IMG/VR virus record: IMGVR_UViG_2778261268_000002
DNA length: 64,000 nucleotides
Origin: a virus
Taxonomy: Duplodnaviria; Heunggongvirae; Uroviricota; Caudoviricetes
Strand: one strand, 5' to 3'
The position numbers and the translations under genes are program-made. Shown one piece after another: positions 47,859-51,407 of this stretch. How positions within the stretch are numbered: the first letter of the stretch is position 1; every line of letters begins with the position of its first letter. The notes under the pieces are model-generated. The model was not told the origin of the DNA. It worked only from the letters and a program-made list of their open reading frames with translations, and ran no database searches.

Positions 47859-48104
47859 TTGGCAGAACGTGTTGATGATGCAGAGCTGAGCATGAATCAG
47901 TTAGAAGCTCTCAAAGACATGGCCATCGATAACATCAGAAAGCAGGCACAGGCCGTGAGCCAGGTATTTACAGGGAAGTGTCGTTACTGCAATGAATCGA
48001 TTGAATCAGGCATTTATTGTGACGCTGAATGTGCGCAATGGCACAGGGAAGAGCAGGCCGCAAAACAGCGTAAATATGGCATGCGACCGGCAGGATTTGA
48101 CTGA
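47859..48104 (+). CDS. TraR/DksA-type C4 zinc-finger protein
   Basis: 81 aa; CRYC...CDAEC. Confidence 0.6.
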   Translation: MAERVDDAELSMNQLEALKDMAIDNIRKQAQAVSQVFTGKCRYCNESIESGIYCDAECAQWHREEQAAKQRKYGMRPAGFD

Positions 48105-48106
48105 TT

Positions 48107-48685
48107 ATGTTGCGCTTTACTGAGGAAGAGTTTCAGGCTTTTAGTGAGCGTCGAAATAAGGGGCGGTCCAGGCCAAAAACCAAAAAGGATCCATTCTTAT
48201 CGCTTGCGCCGGTAAAAGAAGTTTCTCCACATGCGAAGGCACTTGCAGCACTTGCAAAGAACCCAGACCTGCGCGACGGAAATTGCGAGCACTTCGAGCA
48301 GGTTTTCATTTTTGATTACTTCGAACGCAAGCACCCTGACATCTATGAGCTGTTGCATGCAACGCCTAACGGAGGGAAACGTTCAAAAGCAACCGCCGGG
48401 AAAATGAAGGCTGAAGGGCAGAAAAAAGGTTATCCGGACATGAGTCTCGATAAAGCATGCGGTATTTATCACGGCATGCGAATTGAGCTTAAAGAACCAA
48501 ATGGTAAAGCCCCGACGAAAGAGCAGATCGCCTGGATGCGCAGGCTTAGAGAGGAAGGTTACTACGTCGTTCTTGCGTATGGTGCAGAACAAGCGATAAC
48601 CGCCATCCTGGAATACATAAGCCTTAAAAAGGGTGAGGCTATTGAGCATGTATTGAACGGCGACAAGTGGTTGTATGCTGCTTAA
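48107..48685 (+). CDS. VRR-NUC domain nuclease
   Basis: 192 aa; KGYPDMSL...MRIELKEPNGKAPTKEQ (PD-(D/E)xK core). Confidence 0.6.
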   Translation: MLRFTEEEFQAFSERRNKGRSRPKTKKDPFLSLAPVKEVSPHAKALAALAKNPDLRDGNCEHFEQVFIFDYFERKHPDIYELLHATPNGGKRSKATAGKMKAEGQKKGYPDMSLDKACGIYHGMRIELKEPNGKAPTKEQIAWMRRLREEGYYVVLAYGAEQAITAILEYISLKKGEAIEHVLNGDKWLYAA

Positions 48686-48881
48686 AATAATAAATTAATT
48701 AGTGCATATGCTCCATTTGATATAGCGCACATTAACATCGGGAGAATAATCGTGTCATCCAAGGCTAATTATGAATCGCTGGCATCGATCATGCCGCGTA
48801 ATGAACAGGAAACAGATGCTGTAGTGGACCCTGTAATCGCTGAAATGAATGCTCGCCTGGAGGCTGAATTTGCAGCTGAGA

Positions 48882-49511
48882 ATGAACATACCACGCAGGG
48901 CGACTAGGACTGTTTTTTGTGTCGGTAGCGGTCCGTCACTCACTCGTGAGGACTGTGCTGCTATAGAAAAAACTGGCTGTTCAATCATCGCGGTTAACAA
49001 TTCCTGGCAGATGTTCGATGACATTTATGCCTTATACGCCGGTGATTTGTCATGGTGGAAGCAATACGGATCCACCATACCGGGAGGGAGATTCCGCAAA
49101 GTGACAGCCAACCTGGCGGCGGCGAAATCATTTTCGTTGGAGTACAGGCGATATTGTGGACCGGCGGAAGGGGTAAATAGCGGCGCGCAGGCTATCAGTC
49201 TGGCTGCTGAATCAGGGGCTGAAGTAGTGGTATTAGTCGGCTATGACTGTTCTCTGCAAAACGGCCTTCATTGGCATGGCGCGCACCCTCAAGCCCTACG
49301 GAATCCAACGCAGGTGTCTATTTCAAAATGGCAACAGCAGTTCCTGGATACCCGCAAAAAACACGCAGATTTACATATTTTGAATGCAAGTAGGAGCAGT
49401 GCAATTCAATGTTTCCCAAGAATAAATTTAGAGGCAGTGATCGCGTTATTATCGTCGGCAGTGGTCCAAGCGCCGCAAACTTTGTTGCGCCGCGCGGAGT
49501 GCCGATTATAG
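48882..49511 (+). CDS. CstII/Maf (DUF115)-like nucleotide-sugar transferase-like protein, paralogue 1
   Basis: VFCVGSGPSL...IIAVNNSW...GAEVVVLVGYDCS resembles sialyltransferase-like GNGPS / NQFY / GID motifs. Confidence 0.5.
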   Translation: MNIPRRATRTVFCVGSGPSLTREDCAAIEKTGCSIIAVNNSWQMFDDIYALYAGDLSWWKQYGSTIPGGRFRKVTANLAAAKSFSLEYRRYCGPAEGVNSGAQAISLAAESGAEVVVLVGYDCSLQNGLHWHGAHPQALRNPTQVSISKWQQQFLDTRKKHADLHILNASRSSAIQCFPRINLEAVIALLSSAVVQAPQTLLRRAECRL

Positions 49512-50035
49512 CGGTCAATGGGGCCATCGACTGGCTGAACCGCGCTTCTTATTTTTTCACACTTGATCCATCGCCAGACAATATGCGGCGCGTTGGTCGT
49601 GGCCGCCGTCGCCGTGGTGTTTGTTATTGCATGGCACTACCCGATGTTAAAGAACGTGAAGTCAGAGACGGCGTTCTGTGCTTCCGTCGTGTGGCTGAAC
49701 GTGGCATGGAGCCAAAAAATACGAATTCTCCCGAGTGGTGGGCGTGGCGCTGGTCCGCACATTTCGGACTTTGCGAAGATGAGAATGAAATTGCCAGCGG
49801 CAATAGTGCATATGGCGCTCTGAACCTGGCTTTCCATATCGGATTCAAACATGTCGCCCTGGTGGGCGTTGACGCTACACAAGAACCACGCGTTCACTCC
49901 GGCGGCACGCCAAAAAATCTAAGTCACCTGCCTTTGTTATTCCAGTCTGCGCGTGAACGGATTGACGTTGTTTCATGCGGGAAAATGGGAGGTATTCCGC
50001 AGATGACTCTTAAAGAATGGCTGAAGAATACATGA
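49409..50035 (+). CDS. CstII/Maf (DUF115)-like protein, paralogue 2
   Basis: [10 protein letters not shown]...[11 protein letters not shown]...[11 protein letters not shown]; overlaps the 3' end of paralogue 1. Confidence 0.5.
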
Positions 50036-50709
50036 TGGCACCCACAATTTATCACCGTATCGACGGTACCAAATACAGGAATGTCTGGGTTGTTGGTGAT
50101 CTGCATGGTTGCTACACCAGACTGATGTCCGAACTCCATCGTGTGGATTTTGACCCGGCGCAGGATTTACTGATATCGGTCGGCGACCTTATCGATCGCG
50201 GTACTGAAAATGTCGAATGTCTGGAACTATTGCAGATGCCCTGGTTCAGGGCAGTGATGGGGAACCATGAGCGGCTGATGATTGATGCGTTAAGTCCAGA
50301 TGGCAACGTGAATAACTGGCTAATGAATGGCGGACAATGGTTCTTCATGCTGGACACTGATCAGGAAATATTAGCCTGGGCGCTGGTGGAGCTGGTAAAG
50401 CGTCTGCCCTATATCATTGAGTTGAACACCGGGCAAGAAACTATCGTTATAGCCCATGCCGACTATCCGGATAATGAATACCAATTCGGTAAGGAGGTGC
50501 CGCTTTTCAACGTTGTCTGGGCGCGCGAGCGTATCAGTGATTCGATGGATGATATTGGTGGCGAAATTTCGGGCGCAGATCGTTTTATCTTTGGTCACAC
50601 TCCGGTGAAAAGCCCGAAGACATTCTGGAATCAGCAGTATATCGACACTGGTGCCGTATTTTGCGGAAACCTGACATTGATGAAAGTGAAAGGTGATGGT
50701 GCAGCATGA
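50032..50709 (+). CDS. ppp: Ser/Thr protein phosphatase (lambda PPase-like metallophosphatase)
   Basis: GDLHGCY, GDLIDRG, GNHE motifs; near-collinear with lambda phosphatase; ATGA overlap with the upstream stop. Confidence 0.85.
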
Positions 50710-51407
50710 AGATTGCTTTAGTTTTTCGCTCTGGTGGTGACTATAACGCTTCCGATGTGCAGTGGCTGGTTAATCAACTGCCAAAAGGCTATGAAATTAT
50801 TTGCCTGACAGACCTGAAGCGTTTACATGTACCTGGCGTCAAAGTTGTCCCATTGATCAACCAGTGGCAAAAGTGCCGTGGCTGGTGGGCGAAAATCGAG
50901 TTGTTCCGACCGGATATAACCGATGATCTGTTCTATCTGGATTTGGACACAGTTATTGCCGGTGATATACGCCCAATCCTAGAGCATCCACCAACCAGCT
51001 TCACCATGCTTAGGGATTTTTACCATCCACAATATCGTGGCAGCGGTGCCCTGTGGATACCAAATAGTGTTAAAGCGCATATCTGGAGTTCATTCTGGCA
51101 AGATCCGGAAGGTTGGATTTCTCGTTGTGTCACTACTGAGTGCTGGGGTGACCAGGGGTTCTTACGAAAGGTTATGGGCGATGATACACCAGCATTTCAG
51201 GATCTGTATCCAGGATGGTTTGTAAGTTACAAGGCCGATGTTGTGGAACCTGGTTCAAAATATGCGAGCGCGCGTTACTCCAGGGGGAATGGGGCATTAC
51301 CAAAAGACTGCCGAATAATCTTTTTCCACGGCAAACCGCGACCTCGCGAAGTGTCAGAGGATTGGCTTCCCCTTATCAGCTCATTTTTTGAGCGAGAATC
51401 AGAATAA
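50706..51407 (+). CDS. Glycosyltransferase-like protein (GT-A type DxD motif)
   Basis: 233 aa; YLDLDTVI. Confidence 0.4.

What the first reader, a model, noticed from the sequence alone, without database searches (positions are those of the whole stretch)
47859..51407. Operon combining a zinc-finger regulator, a nuclease, two sialyltransferase-like paralogues, a Ser/Thr phosphatase and a DxD transferase
Six co-oriented, partly overlapping genes: TraR/DksA-like zinc finger, VRR-NUC nuclease, two tandem paralogues with CstII/Maf-like motifs (GSGPS, IAVN, LVGxD), a lambda-type protein phosphatase and a DxD-motif transferase. The combination suggests a host- or DNA-modification module (surface glycan alteration, nucleotide or protein modification) whose target is not evident from sequence.
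Basis: partly seen in the sequence, partly recalled or inferred. Interest (0 to 1): 0.6.

Follow-up and report, generated by a model that had tools for sequence, protein, structure and literature searches.

The report
Phage P1 glycosyltransferase cassette pmgO-pmgP-pmgQ
This stretch is the long-known but functionally unexplained pmgL–pmgQ gene block of bacteriophage P1; its real functional core is a three-enzyme sugar-transfer cassette (PmgO, PmgP, PmgQ) that travels as a unit through many unrelated phages, while the zinc-finger, nuclease and phosphatase genes are just neighbours.

Summary

The fold calls mostly hold:
- PmgM is a VRR-NUC nuclease (4qbl, E 3.5e-17).
- Ppp is a lambda/NinI-type phosphatase.
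- PmgQ is a GT8-type DxD glycosyltransferase (model pLDDT 95; Foldseek 1e-8).
- PmgL is called "DksA-like" only by a PHROG profile.

The six genes are not one module. Only PmgO, PmgP and PmgQ recur together, and they do so in lambdoid, HK97-like, SU10-like and other phages of several diderm phyla. They also occur as natural fusions (O-P, P-Q, Q-P, Q-P-methyltransferase), often with methyltransferases. The ppp gene sits inside the cassette only in P1-likes and occurs alone in phage D6.

The cassette lies in late or structural operons, and in P1 it is C1-repressed, so lysogenic conversion is unlikely. In some enterobacterial chromosomes it flanks Ig-repeat adhesin genes.

Best reading: a lytic-cycle glycan-building cassette acting on a protein, probably a virion component. 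The target is unproven. Published knockouts show no plaque defect.

The parts
47742..47770 (.). Divergent late-promoter region LP26/LPpmgL (Lpa-dependent late promoter feeding pmgL and downstream genes)
   Evidence: 29/29 identical to the annotated P1 feature (AF234172). The function is taken from the P1 annotation and was not tested here.
47785..47801 (-). C1 repressor operator O26 (former Op82), overlapping predicted sigma-70 promoters of pmgL
   Evidence: 17/17 identical to the P1 feature and 2 mismatches to the C1 operator consensus.
47859..48104 (+). pmgL: 81-aa four-cysteine zinc-finger protein, function unknown
   Evidence: ORF and P1 annotation. It matches phrog_54 'DksA-like zinc-finger protein' at 2.6e-12. 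There is no Pfam zf-dskA_traR hit, only a weak VATC treble-clef hit, and no PDB relative. It is non-essential.
48107..48685 (+). pmgM: VRR-NUC (PD-(D/E)xK) nuclease, likely a junction resolvase or repair nuclease
   Evidence: phmmer to the solved VRR-NUC structure 4qbl gives E 3.5e-17. It matches phrog_5702 'Holliday junction resolvase' at 4.8e-27. Pfam VRR_NUC scores 21.2 bits, just under the cut-off. The motif GYPD...RIELK is visible in the sequence.
48692..48708 (-). C1 operator Oppp (former Op83) between pmgM and pmgN, next to predicted promoter PpmgN
   Evidence: 16/17 identical to the P1 feature. It separates pmgL-pmgM from the glycosyltransferase part as a potential second transcription start.
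   Evidence: ORF, P1 annotation, and phrog_2350 at 1.2e-37. CRISPRi scored it essential while the deletion was viable.
48849..49511 (+). pmgO: Maf/MptE/GT42-like Rossmann-type transferase, cassette member 1
49409..50035 (+). pmgP: distant paralogue of PmgO, cassette member 2 and the most conserved and widespread member
   Evidence: All 34 family members scanned hit Pfam MptE-like, with a best E of 8.6e-7. Relative P0258 passes the gathering score at 44.1 bits. Cross-HMM hits between PmgO and PmgP range from E 1e-9 to 1e-4. P0051 is a natural O-P fusion. There are 589 representative clusters in 1.84e9 proteins.
50017..50709 (+). ppp: lambda/NinI/PrpA-type Ser/Thr (PPP-family) metallophosphatase, a P1-specific insertion inside the cassette
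   Evidence: Pfam Metallophos scores 59.3 bits. NCBIfam PRK11439 gives 3.3e-81, below the equivalog cut-off. phrog_246 NinI-like gives 5e-113. The motifs GDLHG, GDLIDRG and GNHE are in the sequence. ppp is present without pmgO/P/Q in phage D6. In other phages the same slot holds a methyltransferase.
50706..51407 (+). pmgQ: GT8-like (GT-A fold, DxD) retaining-type glycosyltransferase, cassette member 3
   Evidence: The AF2 model has pLDDT 94.7 and pTM 0.91. Foldseek against PDB gives Skp1 alpha-GalT 6mw5 at 1.1e-8, followed by glycogenin, GlyE, LgtC, WbbM and UGGT. The family profile against PDB gives 6mw5 at 2.6e-6 and 5gvv at 3.6e-3. D79-L-D81 is invariant. Natural P-Q and Q-P fusions exist.
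51409..51474 (.). C1 operators OpmgRa/OpmgRb and promoter PpmgR, the boundary to the next unit (pmgR, pmgS)
   Evidence: Identical to the P1 features.

Best explanation
The block is the pmgL-pmgQ region of a P1-like phage and holds two kinds of content. The first is unrelated accessory genes: the PmgL zinc finger, the PmgM VRR-NUC nuclease, the small PmgN, and the Ppp lambda-type phosphatase. The second is a conserved three-enzyme glycosylation cassette. PmgO and PmgP are paralogous minimal Maf/GT42-like transferases that probably work as a translationally coupled pair. PmgQ is a GT8-type DxD glycosyltransferase that uses a UDP-sugar. Together they build a short glycan from host nucleotide sugars. 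In other phages, methyltransferases and extra glycosyltransferases tailor this glycan further. In P1 the genes are repressed by C1 in the lysogen and are transcribed during lytic growth from C1-controlled promoters and the late promoter LPpmgL. The acceptor is most likely a protein, and in phages probably a virion component made at the same time. That would make this an accessory, non-essential virion or protein decoration system. Shown here: the folds, the paralogy, the cassette's co-occurrence and fusions, the purifying selection and the genomic positions. Inferred: glycosyltransferase activity; the donor for PmgO/PmgP, for which CMP-Kdo is the only CMP-ulosonic acid available in E. coli K-12; and the protein or virion acceptor. 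My probability that O/P/Q form one glycan-building pathway is about 0.8. My probability that the acceptor is a protein is about 0.5, and that it is a P1 virion protein about 0.3-0.35.
For: Folds: PmgQ is GT8 and PmgO is Maf-like. The PmgO family profile touches both CstII motifs at sub-threshold level. PmgP belongs to MptE-like. Functional coupling: O, P and Q are contiguous or near-contiguous in 14-15 loci from Gamma-, Beta- and Alphaproteobacteria, Bacteroidota and Gemmatimonadota. Natural fusions exist as O-P (P0051), P-Q (P0221, P0292), Q-P (P0309), Q-P-methyltransferase (P0272) and methyltransferase-P (P0301). SAM or FkbM methyltransferases occur in 4 loci, and in two of them between P and Q. 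Late or structural placement: the cassette lies between the major capsid and connector genes in HK97-like phages L006, L007, L099 and L100. It lies between head genes and the tape-measure gene in a phage with a different capsid family, L104. It lies between Q or lysis genes and terminase genes in lambdoid prophages L008, L109 and L111, and after the lysis cassette in L003. Protein-acceptor hint: in Pseudescherichia/UBA7338 chromosomes, O, P and Q flank a 1178-aa inverse-autotransporter adhesin with 7 Big_1 repeats and further Big_1 proteins, and Serratia PmgO abuts Big_1 proteins. The closest solved relatives also act on proteins or protein-linked glycans: Maf on flagellin, and GlyE, the Skp1 GalT and glycogenin for the GT8 fold. 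Non-essentiality and absence from the virion proteome fit enzymes that decorate rather than build.
Confidence: 0.42

Rival explanations
1. LPS or envelope glycan remodelling. PmgO/PmgP would add Kdo-like sugars and PmgQ a hexose to the LPS core, which is the P1 receptor, or to another surface glycan during lytic growth. This would mask receptors, either excluding superinfecting phage or stopping progeny from adsorbing to debris.
For: P1 adsorbs to the LPS core (established knowledge). LPS outer-core transferases WaaJ/WaaO are GT8 (named; family assignment from memory), and LgtC, a LOS GT8, is among PmgQ's fold matches. The O-P fusion carries a faint precomputed hit to Pfam PF27901 WaaZ_KDO_III. 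All hosts seen are diderms with LPS. In lambdoid prophages the cassette sits in the classic 'moron' slots.
Against: hhalign of the PmgP and PmgO profiles against E. coli WaaZ gives only 16% and 9% probability over a short motif. The genes are C1-repressed and late-expressed in P1, and they lie inside head modules in several phages. That timing suits lysogenic conversion or effective receptor masking poorly, because new LPS must be made and exported. The chromosomal copies lie beside adhesin genes rather than in waa or O-antigen clusters. No plating phenotype was reported.
Confidence: 0.2
2. PmgO/PmgP are not glycosyltransferases but MptE/thiamine-pyrophosphokinase-like pyrophosphokinases (or SteA-like regulators). 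They would activate a hydroxyl-bearing small molecule or polymer that PmgQ and the methyltransferases then process.
Confidence: 0.1
3. DNA or nucleotide modification. The cassette would glycosylate phage DNA or modify nucleotides to evade restriction, with PmgM nuclease and Ppp assisting.
For: Phage glycosyltransferases that hypermodify DNA are known (for example bioRxiv 10.1101/2023.12.21.572611, listed). In Sinomicrobium phage L105 the cassette lies between DNA polymerase/SSB and ribonucleotide reductase genes.
Against: P1 carries no hydroxymethyl-pyrimidine or other base-precursor pathway next to these genes. P1 DNA is ordinary, restrictable DNA and its antirestriction is provided by Dar proteins (established knowledge). 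Knockouts of the pmg genes did not change antirestriction. GT8 and Maf-like enzymes are not among the known DNA glycosyltransferase families. Most contexts are structural or late operons.
Confidence: 0.05
4. One reading: all six genes (zinc-finger regulator, nuclease, two transferases, phosphatase, DxD transferase) form one coordinated host- or DNA-modification module.
For: The genes are co-oriented and tightly packed or overlapping, behind a shared late promoter.
Against: Outside P1-like elements the cassette never carries pmgL, pmgM or ppp. ppp occurs on its own in phage D6 among unrelated small genes. An internal C1 operator and promoter separates pmgL-pmgM from the rest. VRR-NUC, DksA-like and NinI-like genes are common stand-alone accessory genes of lambdoid nin-type regions (PHROG names).
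Confidence: 0.08

Closest known systems
Bacteriophage P1/P7 genes pmgL-pmgQ (P7: upf81.0, upf81.2, hdmA-D, ppp)
   Same: This is the same locus at 98.4-99.1% nucleotide identity, with the same gene order, promoters and C1 operators.
   Different: There is no substantive difference. After pap the window resembles P7 more than P1. Published work assigns no function. The names 'putative morphogenetic' and 'head morphogenesis' were positional guesses, and the knockouts are viable.
Maf (motility accessory factor) flagellin glycosyltransferases, e.g. Magnetospirillum Maf, PDB 5mu5
   Different: PmgO and PmgP are about 200 aa, so they carry only the central catalytic domain and lack Maf's N- and C-terminal domains (632 aa in 5mu5). 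They come as a paralogous pair and are always partnered with a GT8 enzyme. Hosts such as E. coli K-12 make no pseudaminic or legionaminic acid, so the donor must differ.
GT42 sialyltransferases Cst-I/CstII of Campylobacter
   Different: Sequence similarity is sub-threshold (E 0.1-0.6). The PmgO family has its own invariant GYDCSxxxGxHWHGxH block. No sialic acid donor exists in most hosts.
GT8 retaining glycosyltransferases (glycogenin, Skp1 alpha-galactosyltransferase, GlyE, LgtC, LPS WaaJ/WaaO)
   Same: PmgQ has the GT-A fold, an invariant DxD motif and significant profile and fold matches.
   Different: PmgQ matches no Pfam Glyco_transf_8 model at E<=0.1. It is a compact 200-240-aa phage-specific subfamily (phrog_1962), and its sugar and acceptor are unknown.
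Mycobacteriophage virion glycosylation (Freeman et al. 2023, cited in PMC12691614)
   Same: Both involve phage-encoded, non-essential glycosyltransferases expressed in lytic growth that would decorate virion proteins (details from memory).
   Different: The enzyme families differ and the hosts are Gram-negative. No glycan has yet been detected on P1 or any phage carrying this cassette. The analogy is functional and does not imply membership.
Autotransporter adhesin glycosylation (AIDA-I/Aah, TibA/TibC heptosyltransferases)
   Same: In some enterobacterial chromosomes the cassette flanks large Ig-repeat inverse-autotransporter adhesins. The Aah and TibC systems likewise sit beside their adhesin gene and use an LPS precursor sugar as donor (established knowledge).
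   Different: The enzyme folds are unrelated, and adhesin glycosylation by O/P/Q is untested.

Membership tests
GT8 glycosyltransferases (PmgQ) | GT-A Rossmann-like fold matching solved GT8 enzymes | tested here: met
   The AF2 model has pLDDT 94.7. Foldseek finds 128 PDB hits at E<=1e-3, and the top 50 are nearly all GT8: 6mw5 at 1.1e-8, glycogenin, GlyE, LgtC.
GT8 glycosyltransferases (PmgQ) | DxD metal/nucleotide-sugar binding motif | tested here: met
   D79-L80-D81-T82 is invariant in 32 homologues and aligns with the DxD of 6mw5 and 5gvv.
GT8 glycosyltransferases (PmgQ) | Sequence-profile membership (Pfam Glyco_transf_8) | tested here: not met
   There is no Pfam hit at E<=0.1. The relationship shows only with the family profile against PDB sequences (E 2.6e-6). 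PmgQ is therefore a divergent relative, not a curated member.
GT8 glycosyltransferases (PmgQ) | UDP-sugar-dependent retaining transfer activity | not testable with these tools
   This needs an enzyme assay.
MptE-like / Maf superfamily, Pfam PF01973 (PmgO, PmgP) | Pfam model match above the gathering score | tested here: inconclusive
   The window's PmgO scores 23.7 bits and PmgP 21.0 bits against a cut-off of 34.6. All 34 PmgP-family members hit the model (best E 8.6e-7), and relative P0258 passes at 44.1 bits.
MptE-like / Maf superfamily, Pfam PF01973 (PmgO, PmgP) | Fold of the Maf central domain | tested here: met
Maf flagellin glycosyltransferases proper | Multi-domain architecture with flanking N- and C-terminal domains; located in flagellar glycosylation islands | tested here: not met
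   PmgO and PmgP are 180-220 aa with a single domain. Their contexts are phage late operons or adhesin islands, never flagellar loci.
GT42 sialyltransferases (CstII/Cst-I) | Significant sequence similarity and conserved catalytic His/Tyr residues | tested here: inconclusive
WaaZ Kdo III transferase family (Pfam PF27901, CAZy GT73 from memory) | Profile similarity to WaaZ | tested here: not met
   hhalign of the PmgP and PmgO family profiles against E. coli K-12 WaaZ gives probabilities of 16% and 9%, aligned mainly on one motif. The only link is a 'faint' precomputed hit on fusion protein P0051. PF27901 is absent from the local Pfam copy.
VRR-NUC nucleases (PmgM) | Sequence similarity to a solved VRR-NUC domain and a PD-(D/E)xK motif | tested here: met
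   4qbl matches at E 3.5e-17 over residues 77-180, and the motif GYPD...IELK is in the sequence. The Pfam score of 21.2 is just under the cut-off of 23.8.
PPP-family (lambda phosphatase/NinI/PrpA) metallophosphatases (Ppp) | Metallophos domain above the cut-off and the GDxHG / GDxxDRG / GNHE motifs | tested here: met
   Pfam scores 59.3 bits against a cut-off of 21.5. GDLHG, GDLIDRG and GNHE are read in the translation. phrog_246 gives 5e-113. The protein is below the NCBIfam equivalog cut-offs for PrpA/PrpB (272 vs 326 bits), so it is a relative rather than an equivalog.
DksA/TraR C4 zinc-finger proteins (PmgL) | Pfam zf-dskA_traR match and CxxC-x17-CxxC spacing | tested here: not met
   There is no such Pfam hit at E<=0.1. 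The spacing is C41-x2-C44-x9-C54-x3-C58. Only phrog_54, named 'DksA-like zinc-finger protein', matches, at 2.6e-12. There is no PDB relative.
Phage virion glycosylation systems | Glycan detected on virion proteins and lost in glycosyltransferase mutants | not testable with these tools
   The literature held reports no P1 virion glycan. Glycoproteomics is needed.

The most novel reading that the evidence does not exclude
P1, and hundreds of other phages of diderm bacteria that carry the PmgO-PmgP-PmgQ cassette, decorate one of their own virion proteins with a short O-linked glycan. PmgO/PmgP would start it with the LPS precursor CMP-Kdo, PmgQ would extend it with a hexose, and in some phages it would be methylated. 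That would be the first virion glycosylation system described for Gram-negative phages, and it would have gone unnoticed in one of the most used laboratory phages. The same cassette would glycosylate Ig-repeat inverse-autotransporter adhesins in some Enterobacterales.
Probability: 0.2. Interest if true: 0.8.

Novelty: new variant of a known kind. Interest (0 to 1): 0.48.

Why it matters
P1 has been a workhorse of bacterial genetics for about 70 years, yet roughly a fifth of its genes, including this block, still carry placeholder names.

This analysis shows that three of those genes form a mobile, fused-in-nature glycosylation cassette shared by many unrelated phages and by some bacterial adhesin islands. 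That turns a vague 'putative morphogenetic' label into a concrete hypothesis. It can be tested with mutants that already exist (Gonzales et al. 2022) and, in part, by re-searching their published proteomics data for glycan masses.

If the acceptor is a virion protein, this would extend virion glycosylation from mycobacteriophages to Gram-negative phages. That would bear on immune recognition, adsorption and phage therapy. If the acceptor is LPS, it would be a lytic-cycle receptor-editing system. Either way, it corrects the propagated database labels 'alpha-2,3-sialyltransferase' and 'norphogenetic protein'.

Tried and rejected
1. I tried to model the natural O-P fusion P0051 from a merged alignment (A2). 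MAFFT placed the PmgO homologues on the PmgP half, so the alignment was unusable and I modelled PmgO alone instead. The O-P interface was therefore not predicted.
3. I followed the WaaZ/Kdo III lead from a faint precomputed Pfam hit. Direct profile comparison with E. coli WaaZ was weak, and PF27901 is not in the local Pfam copy. I kept it only as a superfamily-level hint.
4. The viral-contig scan with the PmgP alignment returned 80 near-identical P1-like contigs and no diversity. The genome-contig scan and exact-protein look-ups supplied the diverse contexts instead.
5. Sequence-only PDB searches for PmgO and PmgL found nothing significant.
6. The PADLOC scan gave no defence-system hits for any of the seven proteins.
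7. In the literature, Lobocka et al. 2004 and Freeman et al. 2023 are not held. Searches linking pmgO/P/Q, Maf or WaaZ to phage functions found no functional study.
8. I considered DNA hypermodification and lysogenic conversion and ranked both low, for the reasons given under the rival explanations.
9. dN/dS could not be computed as a ratio because synonymous sites are saturated, so I report pN against pS instead.

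
Full report
**What is there**

The window is a P1-like phage-plasmid. The stretch 47800-51500 is 98.4-99.1% identical over its full length to phages RCS47, P1, SJ46 and P7. P7 names them upf81.0, upf81.2, hdmB, hdmC, ppp and hdmD.

All six ORFs sit at exactly the stated coordinates on the + strand.

The overlaps are 59 nt for pmgN/pmgO, 103 nt for pmgO/pmgP, 19 nt for pmgP/ppp and 4 nt for ppp/pmgQ.

The P1 regulatory features are conserved in the window:
- the divergent late promoter LP26/LPpmgL at 47742-47770
- the C1 operator O26 at 47785-47801
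- the C1 operator Oppp at 48692-48708, between pmgM and pmgN
- the operators OpmgRa/b at 51409-51474, after pmgQ

Against a Pantoea P1-like element with 58-74% protein identity, non-synonymous divergence is 0.20-0.29 while synonymous sites are saturated at about 0.8.

**What each protein is**

PmgM is a VRR-NUC nuclease. It matches the solved VRR-NUC structure 4qbl at E 3.5e-17 and a 'Holliday junction resolvase' PHROG at 4.8e-27. It scores just below Pfam's cut-off.

Ppp is a PPP-family metallophosphatase of the lambda/NinI/PrpA type. It scores 59 bits on Metallophos, 3e-81 on NCBIfam PRK11439 and 5e-113 on the NinI-like PHROG.

PmgL is an 81-aa four-cysteine protein. A PHROG named 'DksA-like zinc-finger protein' matches at 2.6e-12. 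Pfam's DksA/TraR model does not match, the cysteine spacing is not canonical, and no solved relative exists.

PmgQ had no Pfam or NCBIfam hit. A profile of 32 homologues, however, hits the GT8 enzymes 6mw5 (E 2.6e-6) and 5gvv. A very confident model (pLDDT 94.7) matches glycogenin, Skp1 alpha-galactosyltransferase, GlyE, LgtC and other GT8 structures with a top E of 1e-8. Its D79-L-D81 motif is invariant.

PmgP is a distant paralogue of PmgO. The evidence is reciprocal HMM hits at E 1e-9 to 1e-4, shared PHROG cross-hits, and MptE-like hits for all 34 PmgP-family members scanned. One relative passes the curated threshold.

**The six genes are not one module, but three of them are**

I built HMMs for the PmgO, PmgP and PmgQ families and scanned loci obtained through exact-protein look-ups and a scan of species-representative genomes. 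PmgO, PmgP and PmgQ are contiguous or nearly so in very different elements:

| Locus | Element |
|---|---|
| L008 | Citrobacter rodentium lambdoid prophage |
| L111 | Citrobacter sedlakii lambdoid prophage |
| L109 | another lambdoid prophage |
| L006, L007, L099, L100, L102 | HK97-like prophages of Pseudomonas, Ochrobactrum, Zhongshania, a Methylophilaceae MAG and Microbulbifer |
| L104 | Brevundimonas phage with a different capsid family |
| L105 | Sinomicrobium (Bacteroidota) phage |
| L106 | Longimicrobiales (Gemmatimonadota) contig |
| L003 | phage with an SU10-type portal |

None of these carries pmgL, pmgM or ppp next to the cassette.

Natural gene fusions tie the enzymes together:
- O-P: P0051
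- P-Q: P0221 and P0292
- Q-P: P0309
- Q-P-methyltransferase: P0272
- methyltransferase-P: P0301

SAM-dependent or FkbM-type methyltransferases accompany the cassette in four loci. In two of them the methyltransferase sits between PmgP and PmgQ, exactly where P1 has ppp. Extra putative glycosyltransferases occur in L003/L006 and L100.

Conversely, phage D6 carries a ppp gene 89.7% identical at the DNA level, set among unrelated small genes and without pmgO/P/Q. So ppp is an independent insertion into the cassette in the P1 lineage.

The PmgP family is moderate in size, with 589 representative clusters at E<=1e-3 among 1.84 billion proteins.

**When and where it acts**

In P1 the block is preceded by an Lpa-type late promoter and by sigma-70 promoters overlapped by C1 operators. 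It should therefore be silent in the lysogen and active in lytic growth. This rests on the curated P1 annotation and was not measured here.

In other phages the cassette always lies in late or structural regions:
- between the major capsid and head-tail connector genes (L006, L007, L099, L100)
- between head genes and the tape-measure gene (L104)
- between antiterminator Q or the lysis genes and the terminase genes (L008, L109, L111)
- right after the lysis cassette (L003)

The HK97-like examples share related portal, capsid and terminase proteins. They may represent one lineage rather than independent insertions.

One phage, L105, has the cassette among replication and nucleotide-metabolism genes instead.

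There is also an unexpected non-phage context. In Enterobacteriaceae UBA7338 and four Pseudescherichia genomes, O, P and Q flank a 1178-aa inverse-autotransporter adhesin with seven Big_1 repeats, and two further Big_1 proteins lie nearby. In Serratia plymuthica a PmgO copy directly precedes two Big_1 proteins.

**Mechanism proposed**

The best-supported reading is a glycan-building pathway. PmgO and PmgP would be minimal Maf/GT42-like transferases. Their conserved overlap and the natural fusion suggest a translationally coupled heterodimer. PmgQ would be a UDP-sugar-dependent GT8 enzyme. Other phages add methyltransferases and further glycosyltransferases.

The acceptor is most probably a protein, for three reasons:
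- The closest solved relatives act on proteins or protein-linked glycans: Maf on flagellin, GlyE on a serine-rich adhesin, the Skp1 galactosyltransferase, and glycogenin.
- The chromosomal copies flank adhesin genes.
- The phage copies are co-expressed with structural genes.

For P1 that makes a virion component the leading candidate.

The donor for PmgO/PmgP is inferred, not shown. E. coli K-12 supports P1 and makes no sialic, pseudaminic or legionaminic acid. CMP-Kdo is the only CMP-activated ulosonic acid it offers, and all hosts seen so far are diderms.

**Evidence against, and rivals**

No glycan has been reported on P1 particles. The virion proteomics study and a 3.2-3.6 A cryo-EM study of the capsid, connector and baseplate do not mention any. 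Flexible glycans, or glycans on fibres, could still have been missed.

[quoted passage not shown] CRISPRi knockdown of pmgL, pmgM, pmgO, pmgP, ppp and pmgQ had no effect, and the CRISPRi paper's table lists their deletions as non-essential. Only pmgN scored essential, in conflict with its deletion. So no phenotype yet supports any model.

The rivals, with my confidence in each:
- **LPS-core remodelling (0.2).** P1's receptor is the LPS core, LPS outer-core enzymes are GT8, and there is a faint WaaZ hit. Against it are the weak direct comparison with WaaZ and the late timing.
- **Pyrophosphokinase chemistry for PmgO/PmgP (0.1).** This rests on the structural neighbours MptE and TPK.
- **DNA or nucleotide modification (0.05).**

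**Comparison with what is known, and novelty**

The locus itself has been known and sequenced since 2004. RefSeq already labels the products VRR-NUC, alpha-2,3-sialyltransferase, metallophosphoesterase and glycosyltransferase.

I could not find three things in the searchable literature: recognition of PmgO-PmgP-PmgQ as a conserved, fusion-linked cassette; its spread across phage types and phyla; and its association with methyltransferases and adhesin islands.

As a system it would be a new variant of a known kind, namely phage-encoded glycosylation, built from enzyme families not previously implicated. Its target is still open. Interest is moderate: the genes are ordinary accessory enzymes with no phenotype. 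The setting in phage P1 and the availability of mutants make the question directly testable.

Noticed in passing
It has its own PHROG (phrog_2350). A genome-wide CRISPRi screen scored it essential although its deletion is viable. This could reflect a polar or off-target effect, or a dosage effect on the downstream cassette.
   Followed up: partly
window 48849-49511 (pmgO ends) and 49409-49511 (overlap): Homologues of PmgO start about 12-16 residues later and end about 15 residues earlier than the annotated P1 protein. The annotated N-terminus is probably too long, and the 103-nt overlap with pmgP mostly encodes a non-conserved PmgO tail over the conserved PmgP GSGPS motif. O/P overlaps of 11-133 nt recur in other loci, which suggests translational coupling.
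   Followed up: partly
window 41915-42913 (+), P1 gene dbn: Dbn is annotated in P1 as a 'possible glycosyltransferase'. It gives weak Glycos_transf_1 (GT-B type) hits at E 3.7e-5, below the cut-off. P1 may therefore encode a fourth sugar transferase elsewhere in the genome.
   Followed up: partly
window 53045-53551 (+), pap: Pap belongs to the HAD phosphatase family of polynucleotide kinase-phosphatase (PF25109, E 1.3e-11), not to classical acid phosphatases. P1 thus carries two unrelated phosphatases within 3 kb.
   Followed up: no
window 53551-53567 and 53746-54327: A near-consensus C1 operator (1 mismatch) follows pap. The next ORF is 193 aa, which matches P7 upf86.8 in length rather than the larger P1 pmgT annotated at the same place. 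The window therefore looks P7-like, or mosaic, downstream of pap.
   Followed up: no
L093 4357-15419 (same layout in L094-L097); L004 8001-10442: In Enterobacteriaceae UBA7338 and Pseudescherichia chromosomes the three cassette genes flank a 1178-aa inverse-autotransporter adhesin (IAT_beta plus 7 Big_1 repeats) and two more Big_1 proteins. In Serratia plymuthica a PmgO copy precedes two Big_1 proteins, and a second PmgO copy lies 7 kb away. This suggests adhesin glycosylation outside phages.
   Followed up: partly
L110 6738-9616; L004 2014-4404: In two chromosomal loci PmgQ and PmgP are embedded inside what looks like an orphan lysis cassette (holin, Q, P, lysozyme, spanin) with no other phage genes nearby. 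In L110 this lies beside fimbrial usher genes. It may be a domesticated remnant.
   Followed up: no
contig of protein P0200 (no DNA held), genes at 4419-8283 of the listed place: An HK97-like phage has two Mtd_N-domain (tropism-determinant-like) proteins inserted in its head-completion region, immediately upstream of PmgQ and an MptE-like gene. These are candidate fibre or decoration proteins that could be the local acceptor.
   Followed up: no
database names of PmgO/PmgP homologues: The product name 'norphogenetic protein', a typo in the original P1 record (pmgM note), has spread to hundreds of RefSeq and GenBank entries. The label 'alpha-2,3-sialyltransferase' is applied to PmgO or PmgP without experimental basis.
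   Followed up: no
window 14001-16000: GC content drops to 0.37 against about 0.47 elsewhere in the window. This may be a horizontally acquired or variable segment. It was not examined.
   Followed up: no
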